Virus record (IMG/VR): IMGVR_UViG_3300045988_016718
Length of the DNA: 64,000 nt
Strand: one strand, 5' to 3'
Origin: a virus
A program made the translations under genes and the position numbers. Below are positions 4,501 to 54,546 of this stretch, one piece after another. The notes under the pieces are model-generated. The model saw only the letters and a list, made by a program, of their open reading frames with translations, searched no databases and was not told where the DNA came from. The stretch's first letter is position 1. The number at the start of each line of letters is the position of its first letter.

Positions 4501-5193
4501 GCAACTGGTGCTGACTATGGTACATGGATGATTGACTGGGAAGCAAGCAAGGCAGCTATAGATGCTGTTACAGAAACAGACCCACAAAACTCTGCATCCT
4601 ACTTGAGGTCTAATCAGCTTAAATGGGTTAAGATAATGGATACTATTGATGAAGTCAACTATGGTGCTAATGTGAGGTCATGCAGATTCAATAACTGGAT
4701 GAATGAAGCATGGAATGATGGTTGTGGAGTATATGGTACTATTGCTAATTCACAATTAGGTAAGGGAGAACTCTCTGTCAATAATAGAACTCCTTTAGGT
4801 TCTATTGACCCCAAGGCAGTACAACAAGCTGCAAGATATGTAGAACATTACTATGATGATGGACAATATCATAAGTGGTCAATTGACTGGAAAGGGGATT
4901 ACACTGCATTGTATATTGATGATGAACCTATAGCAATATGTAAGGCATTTGTGCCATTCAATCCTATGACAATGCTTGTAGGTTGTTGGTTCCCAAGTGG
5001 TAATGCTTATGATAAGAATGTGTTATTAGGTGAATGGGGAACTTGGTCTGGAGTTCATGCTGATTGGGAAGTAGGACTCATGCAAGTTAAAAGAATCAAG
5101 TTCAAGGCATATACTGAAGAAGAAGCTCCAACTACAGACATGAGATATGATTGTGAAACTTATGCAGAAGATGGATTAAGAGAGATTCTGTAA
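1597..5193 (+). CDS. Long tail fibre/spike protein: unassigned N-terminal ~750 aa plus C-terminal GH16-like glycanase domain
   Basis: 1198-aa ORF with its ATG 12 nt after the previous stop. From 'DYDINFEGDFDAAVTEF' onward it aligns by eye with ORF 28-1584 ('LWYFHYQE', 'NNEIDMELGSE', 'CRFNNW', 'FVPFNPMTMLVGCWFPS', 'YDCETYAEDG'). Confidence 0.6.
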   Translation: MAVPTFNEYTYKISYKVGSSDEIILSEELVILVALTSEVIDGNVVQVQNPNYDYFMNTLSVSVAPVDGATLFIRRNKIMDGEIVVAEEKLVHQGAFSFPDYDTRQSLVITDTEVNGSTSHTILVQILNVVGEERIPCNYTLPKLEFAAQITDSQHVDIQYKQVGSTDYITLGTNVIVPPTGKINNISLGQLPDDTEYLLRIYHYEMDEEKFFLFHTNLIPTLGINPIIGKVEWNGRIVLLDAPNVKARMYPSPDKLDWMFPMDYSTKSFDNILSSLWTSDDYLGKNENYHFEMRTSTDNPEETYIGCAINKDHYIGLPFDYVNDKLPDQGASMNIFYKDLFTVSNPATDRNAIIMKFYADPTHVGPLKLLGINHNSEHDNTNYLGFNFNKAGDCREVNVFGKVMLTSSTGDPLITSGKWYTLLLVTNGDKINYLSISDYSNYSQTTIPINAGAHVGNVDLKNKLYDAGRLPVTIELTYDCTQYTSEIGLCIDYATYQYIEDNDTNNQIEKGNSIYKSPEYGTGKKITVTIPNDAAYGIAVGYSLGFLKGGTTVAGKVTITDFKVNGVSIFSDLTNYPFKVDEAASAYISGTKTDMIWAKTGDSLPTPIGGTVFEDVELNQNIELNARLFVGCPVQSGDMTNASYVVSRIGLHKSTITGTDSWDTPYQYIDPTVMEALGAGYKKMPKLKCTNDNGTVTVIPTSEMTEMKDATVRFLLEGLPIGKTRIEVESGEDILSSVSREIKSVKLTPAQADYDINFEGDFDAAVTEFKKRYYAKQKRWGGNMGGGTNGNLIYFNRGLKCLILEQHGDKYRGIVPAVAPAGANGYGLPVDLVENPLNYIPNTSQRTSRVGGLIQSVDYHPYGMFDCWFKVPKGMIGLAICLWYFHYQEIYNYDKTFKFWTETGVKGYTYADSVKSGYGATWVVINNEIDMELGSENTPYRTVMNPNSDTSIMWYVPGLSYRQAIGCTATGADYGTWMIDWEASKAAIDAVTETDPQNSASYLRSNQLKWVKIMDTIDEVNYGANVRSCRFNNWMNEAWNDGCGVYGTIANSQLGKGELSVNNRTPLGSIDPKAVQQAARYVEHYYDDGQYHKWSIDWKGDYTALYIDDEPIAICKAFVPFNPMTMLVGCWFPSGNAYDKNVLLGEWGTWSGVHADWEVGLMQVKRIKFKAYTEEEAPTTDMRYDCETYAEDGLREIL

Positions 5194-5211
5194 CATACAT
5201 ACAACTAAATT

Positions 5212-5265
5212 ATTAATACTCTTGCACAGGTAAATCAAAATACTTACCTTTGCAGGAGTATTAAT
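5212..5265 (+). terminator. Long imperfect hairpin downstream of the fibre gene (terminator or operator-like)
   Basis: ATTAATACTCTTGCACAGGTAA / TTACCTTTGCAGGAGTATTAAT gives 22 stem positions: 20 Watson-Crick pairs, 1 G-U pair and 1 mismatch. The loop is 10 nt (5234-5243). It is followed by GTTTAT, which is only a weak T tract. Confidence 0.4.
5221..5252 (+). promoter_or_regulatory. Bacteroidota-type promoter (-33 cTTG / -7 TACCTTTG)
   Basis: CTTG at 5221-5224, a 20-nt spacer, then TACCTTTG at 5245-5252, which matches TAnnTTTG. It lies 35 nt upstream of the ATG at 5287 and sits inside the hairpin arms. Confidence 0.45.
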
Positions 5266-5286
5266 GTTTATAGACTAAATGAAATT

Positions 5287-5991
5287 ATGAATACTTACAG
5301 ACAGCTAGTATATATGGTACTTGATGAGCTTAAGGGTTCAGCAGATGACTTCACTTTTACTGAAGACCATGTGATGTTCCTTCTATCAAAGTACAGGGCT
5401 TTCTTGTTAAAGCAAAGATATGCAGACATCAAGAAGCCAATGCCAGAGTCCAATTATCAAACTCTATGTCTTGAGCTTATTGAGGTACCAGCAATAGCTG
5501 GAGTACCTTGTGAAGGTGGTTCATACTTGAGGACTAAAGCCAAGATACCTTTTACTATGAAGGTAGGTAATCCTAAGGTATATCCTGTTGATTACTTCCA
5601 AGGAAGCAACATTACATTTATCAGCAGAGACAGAATGAGATATGTTGGATATAACAAGTTTATGCAGAACATCATTTACTGCACACTTGGTCCTGACAAT
5701 TATCTGTATCTTCAATCAAATAATCCACAGTTCATCTATATGGAAAACATAAGATTTACTGCTGTATTTGAGGATTCAGAAACAGCATCAGAACTTGAAT
5801 GTAATGAGGATGGAAAAATATGTGATACCATAGACAGGACATTTCCAATTGAAGAAGCTCTTGTTCCACCTCTTATTGAACTTGTAGTCAAAGAGTTAAG
5901 ACAAGCTGAATATACACCAGCAGATGAGAAGAATAATGCAAATGATGATTTGGATAATGTAGCAATGACAGCAAACAGGCAGAGTAGATAA
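5287..5991 (+). CDS. Virion structural protein (tail/neck module), function unassigned
   Basis: 234-aa ORF with an ATG start. It is the first gene after the promoter-like element, its stop overlaps the next ATG (TAATG), and it lies between the fibre genes and the large tail protein. Confidence 0.5.
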   Translation: MNTYRQLVYMVLDELKGSADDFTFTEDHVMFLLSKYRAFLLKQRYADIKKPMPESNYQTLCLELIEVPAIAGVPCEGGSYLRTKAKIPFTMKVGNPKVYPVDYFQGSNITFISRDRMRYVGYNKFMQNIIYCTLGPDNYLYLQSNNPQFIYMENIRFTAVFEDSETASELECNEDGKICDTIDRTFPIEEALVPPLIELVVKELRQAEYTPADEKNNANDDLDNVAMTANRQSR

Positions 5992-6545
5992 TGGAAGGAT
6001 TACAGGAGTTCAAGAGAAGAGTTAGAAGAAGCACAGAACATCATGAGCATAAGATAAGAAACTCATGGGGTATCTATGATGGGTATAAGTACTATAGAAA
6101 GACTAAACCCAAAGACAAGGAATATGTGCTAACAGAGAGTCAGTACTTTGCTATAACCAGAAGGATAAATAACCTTATGGCAGAAGAAATAGCTAATGGT
6201 AATGACTTCAAGATACCACATAGAATGGGAGTAATTGAGCTAAGAAAGTATGATGCCCGTATCAAGATTGGAAGTAATGGTGAGGTATATGATAACTTGC
6301 CAGTAGATTGGAACAAAACCTTAGAACTATGGTATGAAGATGAGGAATCATATAAGAATAAGACACTTGTTAAAATGGAGGAGAAGGAAATCTTTACCAT
6401 ATACTATAACAGGAACAGAGCTACATACAGGAATCAGTCCTTCTATGACTTCAAGTTCAACAGGGACATGAAGATAATGCTTAAACAAAAAATCAAAGAG
6501 GGAGCAGTAGATGCTGCTTACTTGAAAAAGAGAGAATACTTATGA
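5991..6545 (+). CDS. Virion structural protein (tail/neck module), function unassigned
   Basis: 184-aa basic ORF, translationally coupled on both sides (TAATG at 5991, ATGA at 6542). Confidence 0.5.
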   Translation: MEGLQEFKRRVRRSTEHHEHKIRNSWGIYDGYKYYRKTKPKDKEYVLTESQYFAITRRINNLMAEEIANGNDFKIPHRMGVIELRKYDARIKIGSNGEVYDNLPVDWNKTLELWYEDEESYKNKTLVKMEEKEIFTIYYNRNRATYRNQSFYDFKFNRDMKIMLKQKIKEGAVDAAYLKKREYL

Positions 6546-43001: not shown

Positions 43002-45146
43002 TTATACACTTTTACTATATACTCTTTGAGTAGCATCCCAATACCTTCCCTTATCATAACCATCAATAGGTCTTAAGAATCCTACCACTCTAGTCCAAAC
43101 TCTCATAGGATGTCCACACTTAGGGCAACTGTCCATAGGATATTTGGCTATAAAGTGACATTCCTCATTAGTACACTCACTGTTTGGTATGTTATAAGTA
43201 AAGTATGAAGTACCTTTCTTGGCAGCATAATCCATTAGTGTAAGATATTGAGACTTACTCAAATGTTCCTCAAGATTACAATGTAATCCTACACCACCAT
43301 CCAATAATTCTGTGAACTCTTTACCATGTAACCTGAACCTGTCAAGTACACTAGTATGAGGGTTCCAAGCATTATAGAAGTAACTGTTATAAATCTTGGT
43401 GTCTTCTGGTACCCAGTATCCATCTTCTTTATCCCAGTTATAGTTCTTGGAGCTTAAGCCTTCAGCAGGAACCAGTTCAGTATTGAACTTGAACTTCTTG
43501 CTATTGTGTAGCTTGTTCTGTTCACTGATAGTACCTGTAATAAGTCTACAGAACTCCTTATATTCTTCATTGTAACCTACCTCAATTCCAAAGTATCTTG
43601 CTGCCTCATTTATACCATTAATACCAATAGTACAGAACAAGTCTTTCATACCAATATATCCAGCAGTTGAAGCATTGAACATACCTCTTTCCTCCCATTC
43701 ATATAGAATAGTCTTATATGCTGTATGATACTTATATACTCTCTCAAGAATACTAACTAGATAGTCTCTAATGAATGAAGTATTCTCCTTCCATCCTCCA
43801 TGTAGACCGTATTCTTTTGTACAGTCTTGTACAATTCTGTTTAGGTTGAGGGTAATCACATTACAACTACCTGTCTTAACACCAGTAAGACCATTGGTGA
43901 AACTGAATACATTCTCTTCAATCTCATTCCTTAATCTACAACATGATGCAAGACCATTAGGGTTATCACTTATATAGACAAAGAATGAGTGTCCTTCACT
44001 GTGCATTTCTGCTGTAAAGTCCTTATATTCTTCATCCAGATAATTACCTTTCTTATCAGTCAAAAGTGCCATAGTTTCAACAGGGAAAGTAAGCATAGCT
44101 TTAGTTCTTTCTCTATTAAACCATTTCATGAACTTCTTCTGTAGATAGGATACTCTTTCCCATGAAGGCTGTGTGCCATCAGGGAAGTAGAAGTTCTCAA
44201 ACAGAGCCTTCCAGTACTCCTTATCATAATAAGAAATGTTGGTAAATGGTGACTGCCAACCCCTATTCTGTGCAGGTTGATTGATGTAATATACAATAGT
44301 CTGAAAGGCAGCTTCAATCTTCTGTCCTATTGTCTTTCTATCTCTTACATGCTCTGAATCTGCATATACTTGCTCCTTCAAATGATAGTCTTCACCATAG
44401 TCCTTGACACAATAATAGTCAAAGTAATTGAAGAACTCACCAAAGGCTACTGCACCTTTACATTGTGCTGAAAGAAGGAACACCAGATTGTTAAATTGAC
44501 CACAGAAGCTAGACAGATGATTGGCTATCTTAGGAGTCACACCATCCATATCCTTGATGCCGTTACTTATCAATGGATATAATGAAACAGCTTCACAATA
44601 GTTCTTAGGTACTGCTGAACTGGCTTCATCATGAATATAAATGATGTGGTGCTCTATATCCTTCTCATACTGTTTGGCTACATCAGGAAACATGACATTG
44701 AGTTTCTCCTTCATTCTGGCTCTCTGAATGATTCTATTCTTAACCTTAGGTACTTCAGATTCAAGAGTGACTACATTCTTCATGGATATATTGGCATTGG
44801 CATCTGTCTCTGATGATGCTGCTGCATTCTCTGTAGACTTGCTATATTTCTCCATATAATCCAATCTGTCTTTAATCTCTCTTGCTTCCTTATGTCTTTC
44901 CCTATAGATGATATAAGATTTGGCTGCTTCAAAATGATTGTCATTCATCAGAATCTGCTCAATCTTGTCTTGAATCTCTTCAACATTGATGTTATCTTTG
45001 TTTGTAAGACCCAAGATGTTAGGTATCATTAGGTTAAGATATTCAGGCATTAATTGCCCAACAGAGTTAAATGCCTTAGTTACTGCAATGAGTATCTTGT
45101 CAAGGTTAAACTCTTCAATTGTTCCATCTCTTTTTGTTACTAACAT
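43002..45146 (-). CDS. nrdD: Anaerobic ribonucleoside-triphosphate reductase (class III)
   Basis: 714 aa with an N-terminal ATP-cone-like 'MLVTKRDGTIEEFNLDKILIAV'. The C-terminus has a Zn ribbon 'CTNEECHF..CPKCGH' and the glycyl-radical motif 'TRVVGFLRP'. Confidence 0.9.
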   Translation of the reverse strand: MLVTKRDGTIEEFNLDKILIAVTKAFNSVGQLMPEYLNLMIPNILGLTNKDNINVEEIQDKIEQILMNDNHFEAAKSYIIYRERHKEAREIKDRLDYMEKYSKSTENAAASSETDANANISMKNVVTLESEVPKVKNRIIQRARMKEKLNVMFPDVAKQYEKDIEHHIIYIHDEASSAVPKNYCEAVSLYPLISNGIKDMDGVTPKIANHLSSFCGQFNNLVFLLSAQCKGAVAFGEFFNYFDYYCVKDYGEDYHLKEQVYADSEHVRDRKTIGQKIEAAFQTIVYYINQPAQNRGWQSPFTNISYYDKEYWKALFENFYFPDGTQPSWERVSYLQKKFMKWFNRERTKAMLTFPVETMALLTDKKGNYLDEEYKDFTAEMHSEGHSFFVYISDNPNGLASCCRLRNEIEENVFSFTNGLTGVKTGSCNVITLNLNRIVQDCTKEYGLHGGWKENTSFIRDYLVSILERVYKYHTAYKTILYEWEERGMFNASTAGYIGMKDLFCTIGINGINEAARYFGIEVGYNEEYKEFCRLITGTISEQNKLHNSKKFKFNTELVPAEGLSSKNYNWDKEDGYWVPEDTKIYNSYFYNAWNPHTSVLDRFRLHGKEFTELLDGGVGLHCNLEEHLSKSQYLTLMDYAAKKGTSYFTYNIPNSECTNEECHFIAKYPMDSCPKCGHPMRVWTRVVGFLRPIDGYDKGRYWDATQRVYSKSV

Positions 45147-47424: not shown

Positions 47425-48096
47425 TTAATACTCTTGATACCACTTGATAGTGATACCATATTTACTTTTCAATTCCCTGTTAATATCAGTGAACAGTTTA
47501 GGGTTCATTTTAGTCTCTGTTCTTGCATTATATGCAGGATGAGGTACTTTAATCACTGTTCCTGTTTTAATATAAGGCTGAAATGTACCAGCCTGACTTC
47601 CAAATAATACATATATCAGACCGGGATTAGTTTCTGATATGTTCTTCAACAAACTGCTGATAAATGGTCTCCATAACATAGTATGACTACCAACCTTATT
47701 CATCTCTACAGTCAATGCTGAATTAATCATCAATATCCCTTGTCTTGCCCAACTTTCTAAGGTTTGGTCAAAGATAATGCTATTATGTGGAACCTCAAAG
47801 TTAACTGCTGCTTCTTTAACAACTTTTAAAGAAGGAGACAACCCATCCTCTGGTACATCAGCCCTGTTGCCAAATAATATTCCTGTAGCCACATCCCTTT
47901 GTGGATATGGGTCTTGTCCTATAAATACTACTTTCAACTCATTATAAGGACATAAATCAAAGGCTCTGAATACATTTTCAGCTGCTGGACAGACTTTCTT
48001 TGAGCCATAAAGCCTGTTCATTGCATCAATAACTATATTCAGTTCCTTTTGATTTATGACTCTTATCCAATCACCAAAGTATTCCTCTAGGCTCAT
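47425..48096 (-). CDS. Uracil-DNA glycosylase-like protein (divergent family 1)
   Basis: 223 aa. 'VVFIGQDPYPQ' corresponds to GQDPYH, 'GILMINSALTVE' to LLLN..LTV, and 'VPHPAY' to HPSP. The catalytic-motif variants make the activity uncertain. Confidence 0.65.
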   Translation of the reverse strand: MSLEEYFGDWIRVINQKELNIVIDAMNRLYGSKKVCPAAENVFRAFDLCPYNELKVVFIGQDPYPQRDVATGILFGNRADVPEDGLSPSLKVVKEAAVNFEVPHNSIIFDQTLESWARQGILMINSALTVEMNKVGSHTMLWRPFISSLLKNISETNPGLIYVLFGSQAGTFQPYIKTGTVIKVPHPAYNARTETKMNPKLFTDINRELKSKYGITIKWYQEY

Positions 48097-48893
48097 ATCT
48101 TCATATATTCTCTCATAAGTCCAATGTTATCCTTTAGGAAACTATTGACTTCTTCATCATTGAAGTGAGATAAATCAGGCATATCAGGTTTATGAATGAA
48201 CCTATCACTTACATCAGCTACAATAATTTCAGGCATCTTCTTTACAAATTGAGTTCTTGGTCCATCAGGAAAGTTGAACTTATTAATCACTGAAGAAGTC
48301 ATTGCACTAAGAGATGCCCCATGTGTTATTACAGTAGGTATGAGCTTCTTAAGGATATTCTTCTCAACTGGTCCATCACCTGTAAACACTTTAGGACTGA
48401 TATACATAACTGACTTTATGAGTTCAGGATAGTTGTTAGTTAAGTTATACTTGATAGTATTTAATAACAGCAACTCCATTTGACTGTTGAATATGACACC
48501 AGCACCACCATAATATACAAGATCTGCATTAGTTGTTACTTTACATAACTTATAATGAGTAGATGTCTCAAGCATGGCTCTTATCATAGAATCTGATGTT
48601 CTTTTGGTCTGTTCCATGCCAACAAATAGAGGAGTGATATAACATTCAACAATCTCATCTTCATGTCCAGCAGTAATCCTAAGGTCCCTATTACTAACAA
48701 GAATATCTTGAACCTCTCTTCTACAGAATACAGGAACTTCAACTTCATCACCTCTCAGGTCTACCTCAAAGAATCTTTGAAATACATTGTTACCATTGAA
48801 GTTAGTGATATCAGTGTCAATAGGTCTTGTGTATGAAGTATTTCTAGTAAAATCAAGACTTGCTAGTACTGTTCTTTCATATATTCCTGCCAT
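48093..48893 (-). CDS. Hypothetical protein, last gene of the E1/JAB cluster
   Basis: 266-aa ORF. Its ATG overlaps the E1-like stop (TAATG), and its own stop overlaps the UDG ATG (ATGA). No motif was recognised. Confidence 0.55.
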   Translation of the reverse strand: MAGIYERTVLASLDFTRNTSYTRPIDTDITNFNGNNVFQRFFEVDLRGDEVEVPVFCRREVQDILVSNRDLRITAGHEDEIVECYITPLFVGMEQTKRTSDSMIRAMLETSTHYKLCKVTTNADLVYYGGAGVIFNSQMELLLLNTIKYNLTNNYPELIKSVMYISPKVFTGDGPVEKNILKKLIPTVITHGASLSAMTSSVINKFNFPDGPRTQFVKKMPEIIVADVSDRFIHKPDMPDLSHFNDEEVNSFLKDNIGLMREYMKI

Positions 48894-50221
48894 TACATTT
48901 CAACTTTAAAATACATTGTATCAGCTGCAAAGGAAGTGTAGAATGGCACATCTCTTGGCATAATAGGATTACACTCATTGGCTACAAAATTTACAAAGAT
49001 GTTGACCATAAGTGATGCAATCATATTAGCCATGAATGTAGTCTGTTTATAACTACATACAGTAGCATCAGCAGCTGCATCACTAAATAACCACTCTCTT
49101 TGATACTGTTCCATTGCTCTTGTGTCATTACCTTGAATAGCCAAAACCTGTAACTCTTCTGCTGCAAGTCTACCATCAATAAGCAAGCATTTACCTCTTT
49201 CTTCTTCTGGTTTAGACATTACATGAGCACACCATTTACTAAATACAAGTTTCCTTGCAGCCATGTTATCAAATCCACAAATCATGATATCATCAACACC
49301 ACTGGTTTCATCATAAAGCCTATTCATAGCAATAATACTATGATAGTCAGCATAATTAGCCACCATATCAGCAAGAGCATCAACCTTTGGATTGCCAATG
49401 TCACTTCTGCCATATAACTGACCTGACATATTGACAGCTTCAACAACATCATTGTCATAGATAATAAGTCTTGCTGGTTTCATTCTAGCTAACAAGAAGC
49501 CAATATAACTACCAATACCACCAACACCAGCTAAGATAATGTTCTTAGTCTGTAGTTGTTCATACCATATTGCACCACTGAACCTTGTAGTGGTTTCATC
49601 AACTGCCAAAGACCCTGAGTTAAGAGGAATCTCAATATGATTAGCTAATGCAAAGGCTCTACCTTTAGCATCTGCTTCATCAAATCTTGTACTCCAATAG
49701 TTATTAACCCAAAACTCTTTCATGTTGTTACCTGCACCAGCGTTGTTCTCTTTAAGAACAATTCTCCATACACCATTATTAGGTGCACTTGCATCACTTC
49801 TTTCACGACGATGAAGTGCTCTGTTTGCTTTTTGGATTATGTACCAAGTACCTGCTTCAATTCTCTTGATATATGTTTCAAGTTCTGTAGGTCTACCTTG
49901 TGGACTATAGCCACAACATACATAATCATTCTCATAACCTAAAGGTGGTTCTGGTTCTGGTGGAACTGGCAAAGGTTGTTCAGGCACAGCTACAGGTACA
50001 GGCTCAAGTTCAATTTCTCCATTAGCAGTCACTTCTTCCATAGCTGCTTGAAGTTGTTGCATTAACTCTATTGATTCAGGAGTTAATTCCACTTCAATAC
50101 CATTAGGAGCACTAAGACTCTGTGCTATGGAAGACTCTGTGGATACTACTCCTTCAGTAATTTCACGAGTTATTATTCTTCTTAGCTGCTCAACAGCAGC
50201 ATCTCTTATTTCTTCATTCAT
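48893..50221 (-). CDS. ThiF/MoeB/E1-like adenylyltransferase with unassigned ~200-aa N-terminal extension
   Basis: 442 aa. The Rossmann motifs are 'NIILAGVGGIGSYIGFLLA', 'IIYDNDVVEAVNMSGQLYGRSDIGNPKVDAL' and 'CGFDNMAARK', which fit the E1-family pattern. Confidence 0.75.
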   Translation of the reverse strand: MNEEIRDAAVEQLRRIITREITEGVVSTESSIAQSLSAPNGIEVELTPESIELMQQLQAAMEEVTANGEIELEPVPVAVPEQPLPVPPEPEPPLGYENDYVCCGYSPQGRPTELETYIKRIEAGTWYIIQKANRALHRRERSDASAPNNGVWRIVLKENNAGAGNNMKEFWVNNYWSTRFDEADAKGRAFALANHIEIPLNSGSLAVDETTTRFSGAIWYEQLQTKNIILAGVGGIGSYIGFLLARMKPARLIIYDNDVVEAVNMSGQLYGRSDIGNPKVDALADMVANYADYHSIIAMNRLYDETSGVDDIMICGFDNMAARKLVFSKWCAHVMSKPEEERGKCLLIDGRLAAEELQVLAIQGNDTRAMEQYQREWLFSDAAADATVCSYKQTTFMANMIASLMVNIFVNFVANECNPIMPRDVPFYTSFAADTMYFKVEM

Positions 50222-50232
50222 GTTTAAATCTC

Positions 50233-51522
50233 CTATAAAATATAATCATCAAGGAGCTTGATGTATAATTTAAGCCACACATTGGTAGGCAACTCCATAA
50301 GAGCATTTCTTACTTCATAAGCAAGAATAGCTATCATCTCTGTATCATCAAGCACATTAACCAATGTTTCATCTGTTGTATAATTGACAAGGAAATCAAC
50401 ATGATTTGATGCCCAATACTCAAACTCCTTAACAGAATCAAATCTGTCAGAGTAGAACTTATCCATGCTGCCTGCCCACTTGTTGATATCTACCTTATTA
50501 TCAACAGGAAGAATAATACTACCTGTGATAATCTGTTTAACCAGCCAGTCAATGACTTTAGCATCAGCCCTTACAACATTATAAGGGATAGCATAATCAG
50601 AAGCTTCAAATGGAAGCTCCTTTTGAGTTGGAGCAGCAGTTTCTTTAGCTTGTCCTTGAAAGGGATAACTAGATTTATGTTCTTCAAACTCTTTCTTAGG
50701 TTGACCAAACTGACTTGGGGGTACATAAGTTCCACCTGTTGCTGGTTTCCCAGTAGCAGCACCTACTGTTTGAAGTCCGGGGTATCTACTCTGATATGCA
50801 CTGGTTCCATAGCTATTGTAACCACCATAAGTAGCACTGGGTGTATATACTTTCTTAGCTTTCTCTGCATCAATCTCTTTCATGCGAGCAAGCATTTCCT
50901 TCTCAACTTCATCAACAGGAACAGTCTCTTTCTGAATCTCAAGAGGGAACCATTCAAGATACTCTTCTTCAGCTTCAAATTCATCAGTACCTTTGATTTC
51001 TCCTTCTTTCCAAGTAGGGTAAGTAAACTCTTCTTTCACCTGTTGTTTAGCCTTATACCTTCTGGTAACTGCTGCACTATAAGTACCAGCATTGTTTACA
51101 ATCAAAGACACAAAGTGTGCCATATCTTCACCCTCTTGACTTAATGTTCCTGTATCAGTTCCACTAAAGAAAGTAGCCATATTGTTATGACTATGAATAA
51201 GCCCTTGGAACACATCTTCACTAAGCAATTCAGGATGGTCAATCATATAACTTACTATGTCAGGTGACACATTAAATTCAGTATAACCACCAGTTCCTTT
51301 GTCCATCTGAAAGATGTCCACACACTTGATAGTCAAAGGATTGTCTTTATCATTAAAAGCACCTTCAACTTGATAGAACAGTACTCCTGACCATTCTACT
51401 TGGCTAATGTGAGTACACAATAACCTGATTTTCTTTTCTACCTCTACAGGTATGATTATTTTATAGGGTAAATCTGGTTTTCTTTTTATCAATTCCAGAC
51501 TTGGCTTTTTTGCTGTTTCCAT
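50233..51522 (-). CDS. JAB/MPN (JAMM) metallopeptidase domain protein with long C-terminal extension
   Basis: The track start is a GTG at 51528, and I use the ATG at 51522 ('METAKKPS'). 'VEWSGVLFY' supplies the Glu, and 'HSHNNMATFFSGTD' is an exact HxHx7Sx2D motif (nt 51154-51195). The start overlaps the upstream ORF by 62 nt. Confidence 0.8.
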   Translation of the reverse strand: METAKKPSLELIKRKPDLPYKIIIPVEVEKKIRLLCTHISQVEWSGVLFYQVEGAFNDKDNPLTIKCVDIFQMDKGTGGYTEFNVSPDIVSYMIDHPELLSEDVFQGLIHSHNNMATFFSGTDTGTLSQEGEDMAHFVSLIVNNAGTYSAAVTRRYKAKQQVKEEFTYPTWKEGEIKGTDEFEAEEEYLEWFPLEIQKETVPVDEVEKEMLARMKEIDAEKAKKVYTPSATYGGYNSYGTSAYQSRYPGLQTVGAATGKPATGGTYVPPSQFGQPKKEFEEHKSSYPFQGQAKETAAPTQKELPFEASDYAIPYNVVRADAKVIDWLVKQIITGSIILPVDNKVDINKWAGSMDKFYSDRFDSVKEFEYWASNHVDFLVNYTTDETLVNVLDDTEMIAILAYEVRNALMELPTNVWLKLYIKLLDDYIL

Positions 51523-52753
51523 ATTCACAATTTAATAATTCTAATATTGCACAAACATACTCTCTTACTATATCTGTATTGAGTATTGTAGATGTATTTC
51601 TTACACCAGTTGCTAATCCATTGATTACAAGATTAACATCCTTGCCTTTAAAGGTTAATACCTTCCTTCCTACATATTGACTATAGTCCCTACTTGCATT
51701 TGAATTAGGGTCAAATATAGCACCATTAGCTATGATAGCCTGTTTAAGCACACCATCACCTTGAAGGTCATATAAAGCTGGCATATTTGGTGCTTTTCTA
51801 TACTCATCATTATACCAGTCAATGAAAGCATTACTTATGGTCAACACAGTATCAGTGAATGTATGAGCCAATCCATAGGAACCTTTTCTATAGTTGAACT
51901 TAAGTATGTTATTGGTAAACAAATAATCAAGGAACTTACTTGATAATTCCTTTGTGAAATACTCCTTCGAGATATGATTGTTCTGTTCTATAGGAAAGTT
52001 ATCCCTCTTGTTACTACCATTAGCACCAATATTCTCCATTCTTCTATAAGGACCACCAGTAAGCGATTCTGTACCCATATACCTTTCAAGTTCAAGACAG
52101 AATAACTGCCATATAGGTTCATCAAATCCTACTGTAAGACTGCTCATAGTATTATTGATAGGACCACTACCAGTACATACACTTCTGAACTTAAATTCAA
52201 AGTCAATACCACTTACATGAGAGTGCATATAGTCAGACTGCATATGTACAACATCATACTCTGACCTGTTCATTTTGAACCAGCCTTTGCCTTTACCTTC
52301 CCATGTTACAGGAACCTTTGCCCACAGATTATCAACTTCTACAGTTCTATCATATTCATTCCTGATAGTCACATGAGGAAAATGTATTATAATAGGTATA
52401 TCTATGAACCACCTATTCCCTATGAACTCTTTCATATAAGGAACAAATCTATCAAATATTGCCACACTTTCAGTTACAGGATACCTGTGCATCGTATTCC
52501 TAAAATCTGAAATTATATCCTCATTATGATTGCTCCTCATATAAGAGCTGGTTGCAAAGGTGCTTGCACTGCCTCCTACTAAATCATACATAGAATATTC
52601 ATTCAAGACACTAATAAAGTCTTCCAAGCTAATAGGCTGTAAATCAACTCTTTCCTCACCATAGAAGTCATTGAATATCTCTGTAACTGCTCTTGGTAGT
52701 TCAAGCAACTCTCGATAGAGAGTCTCTACTTTCTGTTTTAATTCTTCATTCAT
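51461..52753 (-). CDS. Hypothetical protein of the E1/JAB cluster (weak E2-like active-site resemblance)
   Basis: 430-aa ORF with an ATG start. The stretch 'YMHSHVSGIDFEFKFRSVCTGSGP' (nt 52162-52233) follows several predicted beta strands and loosely recalls the E2 HPN...Cys flap. This is only a hypothesis. Confidence 0.4.
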   Translation of the reverse strand: MNEELKQKVETLYRELLELPRAVTEIFNDFYGEERVDLQPISLEDFISVLNEYSMYDLVGGSASTFATSSYMRSNHNEDIISDFRNTMHRYPVTESVAIFDRFVPYMKEFIGNRWFIDIPIIIHFPHVTIRNEYDRTVEVDNLWAKVPVTWEGKGKGWFKMNRSEYDVVHMQSDYMHSHVSGIDFEFKFRSVCTGSGPINNTMSSLTVGFDEPIWQLFCLELERYMGTESLTGGPYRRMENIGANGSNKRDNFPIEQNNHISKEYFTKELSSKFLDYLFTNNILKFNYRKGSYGLAHTFTDTVLTISNAFIDWYNDEYRKAPNMPALYDLQGDGVLKQAIIANGAIFDPNSNASRDYSQYVGRKVLTFKGKDVNLVINGLATGVRNTSTILNTDIVREYVCAILELLNCEYGNSKKAKSGIDKKKTRFTL

Positions 52754-52770
52754 AACAATTTAGTTACAAG

Positions 52771-52808
52771 AAAAAAAGAAGGAGAAGGCTTATACAGCTT
52801 TCTCCTTC
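52771..52808 (-). terminator. Rho-independent terminator
   Basis: The minus strand reads GAAGGAGAAAGC-tgtataa-GCCTTCTCCTTC, a 12-bp stem with one mismatch, followed by TTTTTTTCTTG. It lies 8 nt after the stop at 52816. Confidence 0.75.
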
Positions 52809-52815
52809 AAATTGT

Positions 52816-53526
52816 TTAACCTAAAACAAAGTCAAACATCTTATTTACTTCCTCTTTGGGCATCTTTTCAGATGCAGTGGCTTCTGTTGCACCGCCATTC
52901 AGAGTACTCATGACTTTATCATAAGTATCTTCCTCAATGGTGTCATTACCATACAAGTCCTCAACAAGGATTTTCAAAGCCTGTTCACAGTTACCTGATG
53001 CAGGTGCTGCTACTACTGCCGGAGCTTCAGGAGCTTCTTCTTTCTTAGTTTCAGCAACTGGCTTCCTTGCAGCTTTCTTTGCTGTAGGAGCAGCTGCCGG
53101 AGCTTCAACTTTTGCTTCTTTTTTACCTTGTGATTCAATCAAGTCAATCAGGTCCTGAGTCTTGCACATAGTGAAGTTCTTGCCAAACTTTGCTACACAA
53201 GCAGCCTGCAAGCCATTAGCCTTGATTGCATCATAGGCTTCACTTCTTGTCATGGCACCTGACTTGATTTTCTTTTCCGGAGCTGTCAACAGGAATGTCA
53301 AATCATTGACAATCTGACCTTTGTAAGGAATATTGGTAGGCAGTGGAGCTGCATCATCTTTCAATTCAGCTCTCATGTGACCTTCAAAGAAAGTCATACC
53401 TTCATAGTTGATGCCAAGTTCCCTCATTTCAGCCTTCAACTCACCAAGGTTAGTTGCACTAGATGCCTGAATGATTGATTGTTTCTGAGTCTTGTTATTG
53501 ATAATTGTTACTTTACGAGTTTCCAT
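52816..53526 (-). CDS. Hypothetical protein: possible N-terminal beta-grasp-like region, HeH/SAP-like segment and A/P/K-rich linker
   Basis: 236-aa ORF with an ATG start, followed by a strong terminator. 'KVTIINNK..QSIIQASSATNLGELKAEMRELGI..MTFFEG..AELKDD..DLTFLLTAPEKKIKSG' has a strand-strand-helix-strand-strand-strand pattern. 'KTQDLIDLIESQG' is HeH-like, and 'APAAAPTAKKAARKPVAETKKEEAPEAPAVVAAPA' is low complexity. Confidence 0.4.
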   Translation of the reverse strand: METRKVTIINNKTQKQSIIQASSATNLGELKAEMRELGINYEGMTFFEGHMRAELKDDAAPLPTNIPYKGQIVNDLTFLLTAPEKKIKSGAMTRSEAYDAIKANGLQAACVAKFGKNFTMCKTQDLIDLIESQGKKEAKVEAPAAAPTAKKAARKPVAETKKEEAPEAPAVVAAPASGNCEQALKILVEDLYGNDTIEEDTYDKVMSTLNGGATEATASEKMPKEEVNKMFDFVLG

Positions 53527-53547: not shown

Positions 53548-54546
53548 TTACTTAAATAGACCTAAAATTATTTCTTTGAACAACTCTTTGTTCTGGAGCT
53601 GCTTGTAGAGGTCTGCTACATCTTTTGCCCCATTTATATTAGGTAAGATTAAGTTAGTGAATCCAGTAGACTCTGATAGTTTCTCTCCATCTTTGAGACC
53701 AGCTTCATCATTGTCCAGTAGTATATAGACCTCTCTATATCTCCTTCTTAATTCACTAACTGCTGTTTCACTCATGCCATAGCCCTCACCTTGTATAGCT
53801 ATAGCTGGAATGCCTGTATTAGCCCACAGACAAAGGGCATCCTTCATGCTTGCACAGATACAGATTCTTGTACCAAACTCTGGTACTTTAGTCCATAAAC
53901 TTATAACAGACCTATCATGCCTGTTACTCCATTTATATCCCTTAGTGTTGAATGGTTGGTATATCTTAAGTGTAATATTGCCTTCTTTTCTTTCAACATA
54001 GGCATAGGCATATTTGTCTGCCCCAAACACATACTCTTGACCATTCTTTATCACTATCTTATGACTTATAGGATATATATCAGCATAATCTAGCCATTCT
54101 AAGGTTATTCCAAAGGATTCCCAGAACTCTATATCATGCTTAGCCCAAGGTCTGACCTTGCACTTCAAGTCTATTGACTTTGGTTGTTTATGAAGTACCT
54201 TATCTGAATACTCTGTAGTTTTAACATTGAACACTGGATTGGTACTGGAGAAATTAGGTAAGTCCTCCCATACTCTGGTTAATACCTGTATGTAACTCAC
54301 CCCCCAATATAAGCCAAGTAGGTCCCATAGACCCCCTCTATCTCTTGTTGCATAGTCTACAAAGTGAACTCTTTTTCCATCAGATGAATATAAACCAAAA
54401 GAAGGTTTTCTATCTTGCCTTAATGGAGAGTTTATTATCACAGGTAGTTCACTAACACCAAAATAGTGATTGAGTACATCAAATTCACTTACTTTATTGA
54501 GCAATTCTTCCAAGGTTACACTTGGCTTACCAGTACCAAAAGCCAT
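53548..54546 (-). CDS. DnaG-like primase (Toprim domain, degenerate zinc-finger region)
   Basis: 332 aa. 'NSPLRQDRKPSFGLY' resembles the CHC2 finger core 'CPFH.EK.PSF' without the Cys/His residues. The Toprim motifs are 'ICICASMKDAL' and 'ILLDNDEAG'. Confidence 0.7.
   Translation of the reverse strand: MAFGTGKPSVTLEELLNKVSEFDVLNHYFGVSELPVIINSPLRQDRKPSFGLYSSDGKRVHFVDYATRDRGGLWDLLGLYWGVSYIQVLTRVWEDLPNFSSTNPVFNVKTTEYSDKVLHKQPKSIDLKCKVRPWAKHDIEFWESFGITLEWLDYADIYPISHKIVIKNGQEYVFGADKYAYAYVERKEGNITLKIYQPFNTKGYKWSNRHDRSVISLWTKVPEFGTRICICASMKDALCLWANTGIPAIAIQGEGYGMSETAVSELRRRYREVYILLDNDEAGLKDGEKLSESTGFTNLILPNINGAKDVADLYKQLQNKELFKEIILGLFK

What the first reader, a model, noticed from the sequence alone, without database searches (positions are those of the whole stretch)
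48093..53526. Phage-encoded E1-like adenylase plus JAMM/JAB peptidase cluster: a candidate ubiquitin-like conjugation/deconjugation system
Seen in sequence: ORF 48893-50221 has ThiF/MoeB/E1 Rossmann signatures (GVGGIGS, 'YDNDVVEAVNMSGQLYG..IGNPKVDAL', 'GFDNMAARK') behind a ~200-aa unassigned N-terminal region. ORF 50233-51522, 11 nt upstream on the same strand, has a complete JAMM site ('EWSG' Glu plus 'HSHNNMATFFSGTD'). The preceding 430-aa ORF overlaps the JAB start by 62 nt and contains 'HSHVSG..FRSVCTGSG', a weak resemblance to the E2 HPN...Cys flap. The following 266-aa ORF is coupled by a TAATG overlap. Established knowledge: E1+JAB (+E2+Ubl) neighbourhoods define prokaryotic ubiquitin-like systems, including the Aravind-type operons, PRTRC cassettes, CBASS Cap2/Cap3 and Bil. 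Inference: this crAss-like phage may carry its own conjugation/deconjugation apparatus. It could modify phage or host proteins, or counter host Cap2/Cap3- or Bil-type immunity. I know of no functional description of such a module in Crassvirales.
Basis: partly seen in the sequence, partly recalled or inferred. Interest (0 to 1): 0.8.

Follow-up and report, generated by a model that had tools for sequence, protein, structure and literature searches.

The report
Phage-encoded ubiquitin-like protein activation cassette
A group of crAss-like gut phages carries, inside its DNA-replication genes, a conserved set encoding a ubiquitin-like protein, its activating enzyme, a processing protease and an unknown cysteine enzyme; such systems were previously described only as bacterial anti-phage defences.

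Summary
Five tightly coupled minus-strand ORFs lie between the primase and UDG genes.

- **E1:** the 442-aa ORF has a genuine ThiF/E1 adenylation domain (Pfam 3e-18) with an invariant crossover-loop cysteine.
- **JAB:** the 429-aa ORF has a complete, conserved JAMM site. A profile of it matches Rpn11, CSN5 and JAMM1.
the N-terminal 90 residues of the 236-aa ORF fold as a ubiquitin-like beta-grasp. The domain ends in an invariant (S/A)-Gly. Some phages encode it as a separate 91-92-aa protein ending Gly+2, like a Ubl precursor.
- **p430 (the proposed E2):** this is a large phage-only orphan family with invariant Asn, His-Ser-His and Cys. No profile or fold search links it to E2, so that assignment remains unproven.

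The four-gene core (Ubl fusion, p430, JAB, E1) keeps its order in every fetched related locus with both flanks present. These include ΦcrAss001 (Gp79-76, annotated "ThiF" and "metalloprotease"), DAC15 and FpV4-like Flavobacterium phages.

Most likely mechanism: JAB releases the Ubl, E1 adenylates Gly90, and the Ubl passes through cysteines to unknown targets. A sulfur-carrier role is the main rival. It fits none of PRTRC, CBASS, Bil or Bub. I found no published description.

The parts
52816..53526 (-). p236: a fusion of a ubiquitin-like domain, an HeH-like three-helix domain, a Lys/Ala/Pro-rich disordered linker and a C-terminal helical part with an acidic-aromatic tail (orthologue of ΦcrAss001 Gp79)
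   Evidence: ORF. AF2 model with 50-sequence alignment, mean pLDDT 75.7. About 2135 homologues without Pfam domains. Always the first gene after the primase, or after UDG in FpV4-like phages.
53257..53526 (-). Ubiquitin-like beta-grasp domain, residues 1-90, ending ...KKIKSG. The Gly90 codon is 53257-53259 and is the predicted JAB cleavage and E1 adenylation site.
   Evidence: AF2 gives b-b-a-b-b-...-b with pLDDT 84-92 and a flexible tail at 83-92. Foldseek against the PDB returns mainly DIX, ubiquitin, SUMO, UBX, ISG15 and TINCR Ubl, with probability mostly 0.96-1.00 and target TM 0.5-0.73. G90 is invariant and S89 nearly so in 16 and in 50 diverse sequences. Free-standing 91-92-aa versions end KSG+KF/KC/IL or KAG+CN. 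Coordinates checked.
53122..53247 (-). HeH/SAP-like three-helix domain of p236 (residues 94-135); a possible DNA-binding module
   Evidence: AF2 helices 94-103, 107-114 and 123-135. Conserved 'GKNFT.CKT.DLI.LI'. The HeH assignment is by eye only.
51461..52753 (-). p430: orphan phage-only protein with an invariant Asn132 / His177-Ser178-His179 / Cys193-x-Gly195 / Glu229-Ser230 / Pro235 set (HSH codons 52217-52225, Cys193 52175-52177). Candidate Ubl acceptor or transferase (E2-like role, unproven). Orthologue of ΦcrAss001 Gp78.
   Evidence: Alignments A1 and A5. 2450 50%-identity clusters at E<=1e-3. No family, PDB or fold match. BFVD returns only uncharacterized crAss-like orthologues. AF2 secondary-structure order across 97-223 is helix, four strands, HSH loop, Cys, helix.
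50233..51522 (-). JAB/JAMM metallopeptidase. The catalytic domain is about residues 1-165 (51028-51522), followed by a low-complexity linker and a C-terminal helical domain. Orthologue of ΦcrAss001 Gp77 'metalloprotease'.
   Evidence: In the 17-sequence alignment H110, S111, H112, S120 and D123 are invariant and E43 is conserved in at least 90%. Profile hits Rpn11-like 6fjv at 4e-4, CSN5 and JAMM1. The Rpn11 alignment places HSHx7Sx2D in register. Weak hits to Prok-JAB and PRTRC_A.
48893..50221 (-). E1-like adenylyltransferase. The lineage-specific N-terminal extension with a Pro-rich linker covers residues 1-209 (49595-50221). The ThiF/MoeB/UBA5-type adenylation domain covers residues 210-442 (48896-49594). 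The invariant Cys389 (49055-49057) lies at the end of the crossover loop. Orthologue of ΦcrAss001 Gp76 'ThiF'.
   Evidence: Pfam ThiF 3.2e-18. Nearest solved structures are MccB, UBA5, MoeB and PaaA. Conserved RF213, GxGGIGS, D256xD258, N264, GQ, K279, FDNMxAR, IDGRL and C389..KQT in 22 non-redundant relatives. The N-terminal region is shared only by the closest loci.
48093..48893 (-). p266: conserved protein of unknown function, translationally coupled to E1 (TAATG) and to UDG (ATGA). Orthologue of ΦcrAss001 Gp75. Possible fifth component.
   Evidence: Present directly after E1 in the Bacteroides-type loci that extend past E1. No Pfam, PHROG, NCBIfam or PADLOC hit. The gene in the same position in distant phages is only marginally similar (hmmsearch 6e-4 in a small set, hhalign E 0.005).

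Best explanation
The block is a phage-encoded ubiquitin-like protein (Ubl) processing and activation cascade, expressed with the replication genes. The proposed steps are as follows.

1. p236 is made as a precursor. Its N-terminal 90 residues form a beta-grasp Ubl whose flexible tail ends in the invariant Ser/Ala-Gly90.
2. The JAMM peptidase cuts directly after Gly90. This frees the Ubl and a separate HeH-domain protein.
3. The E1, a minimal and probably homodimeric ThiF/UBA5-type enzyme, adenylates the Gly90 carboxylate with ATP. It then takes the Ubl onto its invariant crossover-loop Cys389 as a thioester.
4. The Ubl passes to the invariant Cys193 of p430. p430 would act as a non-canonical conjugating enzyme, with its own N- and C-terminal domains for target choice, and attach the Ubl to lysines of phage or host proteins at the replication site.
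5. The JAMM peptidase can also reverse the modification.

**Shown here:** the folds and families of Ubl, E1 and JAB, their catalytic residues, the invariant glycine, the split-gene variants, and the strict co-conservation.

**Inferred:** cleavage at Gly90, adenylation, thioester relay, the role of p430, and the nature of the targets.
For: - **E1 domain and active site:**. Invariant Cys389 lies just before the helix that follows the crossover loop, comparable to UBA5 Cys250 as described in PMC11601596.
- **JAMM site and JAMM-only PDB hits:**
- **Ubl fold:** AF2 pLDDT 84-92. Foldseek top hits are mainly ubiquitin, SUMO, UBX, ISG15 and DIX, with probability mostly 0.96-1.0.
- **Invariant Gly90:** it comes after the last strand and is followed by variable sequence.
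- **Free-standing Ubls:** many independent 91-92-aa versions end Gly+2 residues. This resembles the UFM1 (VG-SC) and QbsE (GG-CF) precursors (established knowledge).
- **Split genes:** in L010 and L068 a homing-endonuclease-like ORF sits two codons after the Gly and splits the gene. The two halves therefore work as separate polypeptides.
- **Precedent:** in Bub systems a JAB cleaves a Ubl fusion right after a conserved Gly (PMC11601596).
- **Gene order:** Ubl-p430-JAB-E1 is conserved in every fetched locus that holds all four genes. This covers 5 genera of Steigviridae Asinivirinae, FpV4-like Flavobacterium phages, Dulem virus 41 and environmental contigs.
- **p430 residues:** its invariant Cys, His and Asn are those expected of a thioester-carrying enzyme.
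- **Ubl tail:** SG/AG rather than GG, as in conjugating Ubls such as UFM1 (VG) and Atg8/12 (FG) (established knowledge).
Against: - p430 shows no detectable relation to any E2/UBC family by HMM, profile-profile or fold search. AF2 models its most conserved segment (178-246) at pLDDT below 50.
- The Ubl fold match has only modest E-values, 4e-3 to 2e-2, because the query is a 236-aa multidomain model.
- Sequence profiles of the Ubl domain find nothing in the PDB or against ubiquitin.
- The closest named families for the E1 are sulfur-carrier ThiF/MoeB enzymes.
- No target, no E3 and no experimental data exist.
- The E1 has Gly where MoeB-type enzymes have the Arg of the NxxRQ motif (comparison from memory).
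Confidence: 0.55

Rival explanations
1. Sulfur-carrier pathway. The Ubl is a ThiS/MoaD/TtuB-like sulfur carrier. JAB trims it, as Mec+ does for CysO and QbsD for QbsE. The E1 adenylates it and it is converted to a thiocarboxylate using a host sulfur donor. p430, through its invariant Cys/His site, uses that sulfur to thiolate a nucleotide, DNA or tRNA during replication.
For: - The best named matches of the E1 are ThiF/MoeB adenylyltransferases (NF006395 at 4e-17). Public records call it 'thiamine biosynthesis protein'.
- The minimal single-domain E1 with a Cys near the crossover loop is the ThiF/MoeB architecture.
- JAB plus Ubl plus E1 without a recognisable E2 is the classic sulfur-carrier neighbourhood (PMC1779556).
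- The block sits among nucleotide-metabolism genes: UDG and a class III ribonucleotide reductase.
Against: - All E1 scores are far below the ThiF/MoeB equivalog cut-offs: 62 against 159, and 32 against 449.
- The Ubl ends in Ser/Ala-Gly, never Gly-Gly. Known sulfur carriers end in GG (established knowledge).
- A motif scan of the window's ORFs found no rhodanese, PP-loop ATPase or cysteine-desulfurase motif.
- The Ubl is fused to an HeH domain protein with a Lys-rich linker, which suggests a protein-level role.
Confidence: 0.2
2. Maturation only. The JAB peptidase simply cleaves p236 to release an active HeH DNA-binding replication factor. The beta-grasp acts as a removable chaperone or inhibitory domain, as proposed for lambda TAPI/TAPK. 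The E1-like protein and p430 act on some other carboxylate substrate, for example as MccB/PaaA-like enzymes modifying a peptide or small molecule.
For: - MccB and PaaA are the top solved-structure matches of the E1.
- Phage Ubl plus JAB pairs without an E1 are known in tail assembly (PMC1779556).
- The gene can be split at the domain boundary without loss.
Against: - The MccB/PaaA matches cover only the Rossmann segment, residues 218-292.
- Orthologues have no peptide-clamp N-domain, and minimal E1s are 228 aa.
- The invariant terminal Gly on a flexible tail, together with strict co-occurrence of Ubl and E1 in every fetched locus holding both genes, argues that the Ubl is the E1 substrate.
Confidence: 0.12
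3. Counter-defence. The cassette neutralises host ubiquitin-like immunity (Bil, Bub, type II CBASS). The phage JAB would strip host Ubl or CD-NTase conjugates, or the phage Ubl would act as a decoy substrate that titrates host E1/E2.
For: Bacterial Ubl pathways act against phages by modifying phage structural proteins (PMC11601596 introduction). Weak PADLOC similarity to the Cap2 E1 segment.
Against: - The cassette is a fixed, syntenic part of the replication module across distant phages of Bacteroides and Flavobacterium. Known anti-defence genes are usually variable accessory genes (established knowledge).
- A DUB or decoy would not need its own E1 with an intact active site and a co-evolving Ubl.
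- Similarity to Cap2 is confined to the generic Rossmann part.
Confidence: 0.08

Closest known systems
Bil (bacterial ISG15-like) operons BilA-BilB-BilC-BilD
   Same: Same order of roles along the operon: Ubl, then a Cys enzyme in the E2 position, then a JAB peptidase, then an E1. No E3. The E2-position protein is thought to pick targets itself.
   Different: [quoted passage not shown] The phage E1 is a single adenylation domain, as short as 228 aa.
- p430 is 360-450 aa and is not recognisably UBC-like.
- The Ubl is fused to a C-terminal HeH protein.
- The cassette is encoded by a lytic phage inside its replication genes, not in a defence island.
Type I Bub (6E.1) operons: BubAB (Ubl-E2 fusion) + BubCD (JAB-E1 fusion) + BubE
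   Same: The Ubl is synthesised fused to a downstream domain. A JAB peptidase cleaves right after a conserved Gly. The E1 is a minimal homodimer-type enzyme related to ThiF/UBA5 (PMC11601596). A real example, with Multi_ubiq+Prok-E2_E and JAB+ThiF proteins, was retrieved as L098.
   Different: - Bub E1 and E2 lack cysteines and work through oxyesters. The phage E1 and p430 each have an invariant Cys.
- JAB and E1 are separate genes here.
- The fusion partner of the Ubl is an HeH protein, not the E2.
- There is no DUF6527 protease.
UFM1-UBA5 (eukaryotic minimal cascade)
   Same: A single-domain homodimeric E1 with the catalytic Cys at the end of the crossover loop; UBA5 is among the best PDB matches. 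The Ubl ends in x-Gly rather than Gly-Gly and is made with a two-residue extension that must be removed.
   Different: No detectable specific sequence relationship beyond the superfamily. The processing enzyme is a JAMM metalloprotease rather than a Cys protease. No UFC1-like E2 was identified.
ThiS/MoaD-ThiF/MoeB sulfur-carrier systems with JAB (CysO/Mec+, QbsE/QbsD)
   Same: A beta-grasp with a C-terminal Gly, a minimal E1, and JAMM trimming of a short C-terminal extension.
   Different: The Ubl tail is SG/AG, not GG. No sulfurtransferase partner was detected. E1 scores are far below the equivalog thresholds. The context is replication.
Lambda/T1 tail-assembly TAPI (Ubl) + TAPK (JAB-NlpC/P60)
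   Same: The only previously described phage-encoded Ubl plus JAB pair. There too the Ubl carries a C-terminal Gly and is fused to a further domain through a linker (PMC1779556).
   Different: It has no E1. It lies in the tail-assembly module, not the replication module. There is no p430-like partner.
PRTRC cassettes and type II CBASS Cap2/Cap3
   Same: They combine ThiF-family E1 and JAB domains on mobile elements.
   Different: The PRTRC models score far below threshold, and only the A and ThiF models match at all. No PRTRC B or C hit and no CD-NTase or ParB domain were found in the proteins scanned. The E1 is not fused to an E2.

Membership tests
ThiF/MoeB/E1 adenylyltransferase superfamily (PF00899) | Rossmann-type adenylation domain scoring above the Pfam gathering threshold | tested here: met
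   66.2 bits against a cut-off of 28.1, E 3.2e-18, residues 220-417.
ThiF/MoeB/E1 adenylyltransferase superfamily (PF00899) | ATP/Mg site residues: Gly-rich loop, DxD, Lys, DN...R, N-terminal Arg | tested here: met
   GxGGIGS, D256xD258, K279, FDNMxAR and R213 are conserved in 22 non-redundant relatives. One deviation: NMSGQ where MoeB-type enzymes have NxxRQ.
Thioester-forming E1 | Conserved Cys in or next to the crossover loop | tested here: met
   C389 is conserved in at least 95% of 22 diverse relatives, immediately before the KQT helix. Thioester chemistry itself was not tested.
JAMM/MPN+ metallopeptidase | E ... HxH ... S ... D zinc and catalytic motif | tested here: met
   In 17 diverse orthologues H110, S111, H112, S120 and D123 are invariant and E43 is conserved in at least 90%. 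The motif is in register with Rpn11.
JAMM/MPN+ metallopeptidase | Significant family-level sequence match | tested here: inconclusive
   Pfam Prok-JAB gives 16.4 bits, below the cut-off of 25. A family profile hits only JAMM enzymes in the PDB, best at 4e-4.
Ubiquitin-like beta-grasp modifier | Beta-grasp fold | tested here: met
   AF2 pLDDT 84-92 for residues 1-82. Foldseek hits are mainly ubiquitin, SUMO, UBX, ISG15 and DIX, with probability mostly 0.96-1.0 and target TM 0.5-0.73. No sequence-level match.
Ubiquitin-like beta-grasp modifier | Flexible tail ending in a conserved Gly that becomes the C-terminus | tested here: inconclusive
   Gly90 is invariant and is followed by variable sequence. 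Free-standing forms end Gly+2 residues. Actual cleavage cannot be tested with these tools.
E2/UBC conjugating enzyme (including Prok-E2 families) | UBC fold | tested here: inconclusive
   Foldseek found no PDB hit better than E 0.65. The AF2 model has pLDDT below 50 across 178-246. The secondary-structure order resembles UBC, but the strands and loops are much longer.
E2/UBC conjugating enzyme (including Prok-E2 families) | Sequence or profile match to UQ_con or Prok-E2_A-E | tested here: not met
   No such hit in 31 and 92 members at E<=10 and E<=1. PADLOC and NCBIfam likewise gave none. hhalign against UBE2D2/I/N gave probability 0.2%.
E2/UBC conjugating enzyme (including Prok-E2 families) | Conserved His (HPN-like) upstream of an invariant catalytic Cys | tested here: inconclusive
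   H177-S-H179 and C193 are invariant. The spacing is 14-16 residues rather than about 8, and the motif alone is not diagnostic.
PRTRC system | PRTRC_ThiF, A, B, C, E, F and ParB proteins above the NCBIfam cut-offs | tested here: not met
   PRTRC_ThiF 31 bits against 144.75. PRTRC_A 14 bits against 101.8. No other PRTRC model matched the eight proteins scanned, which include the five cassette proteins.
Type II CBASS (Cap2/Cap3) | E2-E1 fusion protein with an adjacent CD-NTase | tested here: not met
   PADLOC E1-E2 models match only the Rossmann segment, residues 209-348. E1 orthologues are as short as 228 aa. Pfam found no CD-NTase among the eight proteins scanned, from UDG to the ORF upstream of primase.
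Bil system | [quoted passage not shown] | tested here: not met
   The E1 has a single adenylation domain. The N-terminal region is variable and absent in many orthologues. p430 is not UBC-like by any search. Only the gene order matches.
Bub system | JAB-E1 and/or Ubl-E2 or E2-E1 fusions, Cys-less E1 and E2, DUF6527 protease | tested here: not met
   The genes are separate. Cys is invariant in E1 and in p430. There is no DUF6527 hit. A genuine Bub operon (L098) served for comparison.
ThiS/MoaD sulfur-carrier pathway | Carrier ending Gly-Gly; ThiF/MoeB equivalog score; sulfurtransferase partner | tested here: not met
   The tail is Ser/Ala-Gly. The best equivalog scores 62.5 bits against a cut-off of 159. 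A motif scan found no rhodanese, PP-loop or desulfurase motif in the window's ORFs; this was a regex scan only and the window is not the whole genome.

The most novel reading that the evidence does not exclude
Steigviridae crAss-like phages and their Flavobacterium-phage relatives run their own ubiquitin-like protein conjugation cascade during genome replication. The conjugating enzyme (p430) would be a new, non-UBC class of Cys/His enzyme found only in phages. It would attach the 90-residue Ubl to replisome or host proteins.
Probability: 0.25. Interest if true: 0.9.

Novelty: new variant of a known kind. Interest (0 to 1): 0.74.

Why it matters
Ubiquitin-like conjugation in bacteria has been established in recent years as anti-phage immunity (type II CBASS, Bil, probably Bub). 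A complete Ubl, E1 and JAB set encoded by the virus itself, fixed inside its replication module, would show that phages also use this chemistry.

The cassette is present in the cultured crAss model phages ΦcrAss001 and DAC15, so the idea is directly testable. It also corrects a widespread annotation: "thiamine biosynthesis protein" and "metalloprotease domain" are flanked by three "hypothetical" genes in the public records.

The cassette defines two large orphan families. p430 has about 2450 clusters at 50% identity, and the Ubl-HeH protein about 2100 homologues. This gives both families a functional context. If p430 is the transferase, it would be a new kind of Ubl-conjugating enzyme.

Tried and rejected
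**p430 as an E2 — no support found.**
- Pfam on 31 and on 92 members, PADLOC, NCBIfam.
- PDB profile searches.
- Foldseek against PDB and BFVD.
- The AF2 model is poor exactly in the conserved core.

**Ubl by sequence alone.** A PDB profile search and hhalign against ubiquitin both failed. Only the structure prediction showed the fold.

**Membership of PRTRC, CBASS, Bil or Bub.** Rejected after testing.

**Cellular homologues of p430.** The genome scan found only 3 MAG contigs, which are probably phage.

**Plasmid relatives of the E1.** Only weak, unrelated ThiF genes turned up, apart from one Bub operon.

**Bridge through a jumbo-phage protein.** An 892-aa protein lies next to a related ThiF and carries 'IHPHM...GSLCLGS'. 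hhalign lines the motifs up with p430 and with UBE2D2, but not significantly (E 0.08 and 0.02). No relatives could be collected to build a profile.

**p266 orthology in distant phages.** Only marginal.

**Literature.** Eight searches found no paper connecting crAss-like phages with ThiF, JAB or ubiquitin-like systems. The library does not hold subscription-only papers.

Full report
**1. What is in the sequence**

The region lies in the minus-strand half of a crAss-like phage genome. The strand switch is near 22 kb by GC skew. The nearest isolate is Bacteroides phage DAC15, with patchy nucleotide identity of about 79%.

In transcription order the genes are:
- primase (53548-54546)
- p236 (52816-53526)
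- p430 (51461-52753)
- a JAB protein (50233-51522)
- an E1-like protein (48893-50221)
- p266 (48093-48893)
- uracil-DNA glycosylase (47425-48096)

p430 overlaps the JAB start by 62 nt, 11 nt separate JAB and E1, E1 and p266 overlap as TAATG, and p266 and UDG overlap as ATGA. The block is therefore one tightly coupled transcription and translation unit inside the replication module.

**2.

*E1.* The 442-aa protein matches Pfam ThiF at 3.2e-18, well above threshold, over residues 220-417. Its nearest solved relatives are MccB, UBA5, MoeB and PaaA. In 22 non-redundant relatives the nucleotide-site residues are conserved, and so is a cysteine (C389) at the end of the crossover loop.

The first ~210 residues, which include a proline-rich linker, are shared only by the closest five loci. 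Orthologues are as short as 228 aa. The enzyme is therefore a minimal, single-domain E1 of the ThiF/MoeB/UBA5 type.

*JAB.* The JAB call is weak for the single sequence. A profile of 17 diverse orthologues hits only JAMM enzymes in the PDB: Rpn11-like at 4e-4, then CSN5 and JAMM1. H110, S111, H112, S120 and D123 are invariant, and E43 is conserved in at least 90% of the sequences.

**3. The missing piece: a ubiquitin-like protein**

The N-terminal 90 residues of p236 are conserved in all orthologues. They end in K-x-x-(K/S)-(S/A)-G, after which the sequence becomes variable. Gly90 is invariant in 16 and in 50 diverse sequences.

Sequence profiles found no relative. An AlphaFold2 model from a 50-sequence alignment gives residues 1-82 a b-b-a-b-b-...-b arrangement at pLDDT 84-92. 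This is followed by a floppy tail (83-92), a three-helix domain (94-135), a disordered Lys/Ala/Pro-rich linker, and C-terminal helices.

Foldseek against the PDB returns mainly ubiquitin-superfamily domains: DIX, ubiquitin, SUMO, UBX, ISG15 and a TINCR Ubl. For most of these, probabilities are 0.96-1.0 and target TM-scores 0.5-0.73 over about 80-90 columns. The E-values are only 4e-3 to 2e-2, because the query is multidomain.

The database also holds many independent free-standing versions of 91-92 aa that end ...KSG-KF, -KC or -IL, or ...KAG-CN. That is a Ubl precursor with a two-residue extension. In two fetched loci this split is caused by a homing-endonuclease-like ORF inserted two codons after the glycine. 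The two halves of p236 must therefore function as separate polypeptides. This is what one expects if they are normally separated by cleavage at that point.

A direct precedent exists. In Bub systems the JAB domain cleaves a Ubl fusion immediately after a conserved glycine (PMC11601596).

**4. The proposed E2 (p430) is not confirmed**

p430 belongs to a very large family: 728 close homologues and 2450 clusters at 50% identity. The family appears confined to phages, with only three MAG contigs found among 185,579 species genomes.

Nine positions are invariant in 92 diverse members, including Flavobacterium-phage versions at about 20% identity: N132, H177, S178, H179, C193, G195, E229, S230 and P235. 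This is the signature of an enzyme with a Cys/His site.

None of the following links it to E2 or to any other known family:
- Pfam, NCBIfam and PADLOC
- PDB profile searches
- hhalign against three E2s
- Foldseek against PDB and BFVD

The AF2 model (mean pLDDT 73) is unreliable exactly in the conserved segment 178-246. The order of secondary-structure elements around it is helix, four strands, His loop, Cys, helix. That is the order in a UBC fold, but the strands and loops are much longer, so I treat this as a lead only.

A second lead comes from a jumbo Xanthomonas phage. It has a related ThiF next to an 892-aa protein carrying 'IHPHM...GSLCLGS'. hhalign lines this motif up both with p430 and with the UBE2D2 active site, without significance.

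**5. Conservation**

The order p236-p430-JAB-E1 is kept in every fetched locus that holds all four genes (some loci are cut by a contig end, and a few genes are split by insertions):
- the 80 IMG/VR loci retrieved with the E1
- DAC15 and bajarodcaudo virus 1
- ΦcrAss001, where the genes are Gp79-Gp76, with Gp77 annotated 'metalloprotease domain' and Gp76 'ThiF'
- further Steigviridae Asinivirinae genera
- Dulem virus 41
- FpV4-like Flavobacterium phages and related environmental contigs

In the 50,697-genome phage collection, tblastn finds the E1 in 87 records and p430 in 74. The p430 records, and the strong E1 matches, all belong to these phage groups. No other Crassvirales family appears at this sensitivity.

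p266 follows the E1 in the Bacteroides-type phages. The gene in that position in distant phages is only marginally similar.

**6. Mechanism**

The best-supported reading is a Ubl processing and activation cascade:
1. JAB releases the Ubl by cutting after Gly90.
2. The E1 adenylates Gly90 and probably forms a thioester on C389.
3. p430, through C193, is the most plausible next acceptor and ligase.
4. The targets are unknown. The JAB may also deconjugate.

The folds, the catalytic residues, the invariant glycine, the split variants and the co-conservation are shown here. Every chemical step is inferred.

The main rival is a ThiS/MoaD-type sulfur-carrier pathway feeding a thiolation reaction by p430. 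Three points count against it. The Ubl tail is Ser/Ala-Gly, never Gly-Gly. E1 scores are far below the ThiF/MoeB equivalog cut-offs. A motif scan of the window's ORFs found no sulfurtransferase motif.

Maturation-only and counter-defence readings are less likely. The Ubl and an intact E1 always co-occur. The cassette is also a fixed core block rather than a variable accessory gene.

**7. Comparison with known systems**

In function it most resembles three systems:
- Bil, which has the same order of roles and no E3.
- Bub, where a JAB cleaves a Ubl fusion and the E1 is minimal.
- UFM1-UBA5, which has a minimal E1, an x-Gly tail and a two-residue extension.

It fails the membership tests for Bil (E1 architecture), Bub (fusions, Cys-less enzymes, DUF6527), PRTRC (NCBIfam cut-offs) and type II CBASS (no E2-E1 fusion, no CD-NTase). 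It also differs from the only previously described phage Ubl plus JAB pair, lambda TAPI/TAPK, which has no E1 and serves tail assembly (PMC1779556).

Eight literature searches found no description of this module in crAss-like phages. Public records carry only the labels 'thiamine biosynthesis protein' or 'ThiF', 'E1 enzyme family protein' and 'metalloprotease domain'.

**8. Verdict**

The E2 assignment is unproven.

I class the cassette as a new variant of a known kind of system. It is virus-encoded, it sits in the replication module, and it has an orphan Cys enzyme in the E2 position. It can be tested directly in cultured ΦcrAss001 or DAC15.

Noticed in passing
L010:3046-3577 and L068:3270-3722 (IMG/VR relatives): An ORF beginning MEIWKDIVGYEGLYKVSN... 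(L010) or MENWKIIEGTTYRVS... (L068), which looks like an HNH/NUMOD4-type homing endonuclease. It is inserted two codons after the invariant Gly of the Ubl and splits p236 into a 91-92-aa Ubl and a separate HeH protein.
   Followed up: partly
L094:2991-6490 (IMGVR_UViG_3300008406_000002): The JAB gene (2991-3302 and 4616-5530) and the E1 gene (5517-5717 and 5954-6490) are each interrupted by insertions. These could be mobile introns, inteins or endonuclease genes.
   Followed up: no
L084:6663-7751 (Flavobacterium phage Fpv3 gp51) and L090:6690-7994: The proteins encoded directly after the E1 in these phages have long acidic C-terminal extensions ending ...EDLPF and ...EPLPF. These resemble the C-terminal tail of bacterial SSB that recruits replication and repair proteins. 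p236 orthologues also end in an acidic-aromatic motif (E-I-D/N-x-M-F-D/S-F).
   Followed up: no
L104:1241-4615 (Xanthomonas jumbo phage PhiXhv-16): A 227-aa ThiF related to the crAss E1 (family HMM E 7e-26) follows an 892-aa Cys-rich protein containing 'IHPHMAVPSSQESHGSLCLGSF', an E2-active-site-like string. No JAB or Ubl homologue was detected beside it. This may be a different phage E1 system.
   Followed up: partly
window 49595-50221: The E1 of this phage and its four or five closest relatives carries a ~210-aa N-terminal extension with a Pro-rich linker (PVPVAVPEQPLPVPPEPEPP) and a small domain of unknown function. Most orthologues lack it.
   Followed up: partly
window 42175 and 43002-45146: A class III (anaerobic) ribonucleotide reductase lies next to a small ORF with a radical-SAM CxxxCxxC motif, presumably its activase.
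   Followed up: no
window ~22000: GC skew and AT skew change sign near 22 kb. This marks the switch from plus-strand to minus-strand genes.
   Followed up: no
L099-L101 (genome contigs): Three MAGs labelled Bacilli, Acholeplasmatales and Spirochaetia contain p430 homologues on contigs of 1 to 94 kb. These are most likely crAss-like phage contigs binned into bacterial genomes.
   Followed up: no
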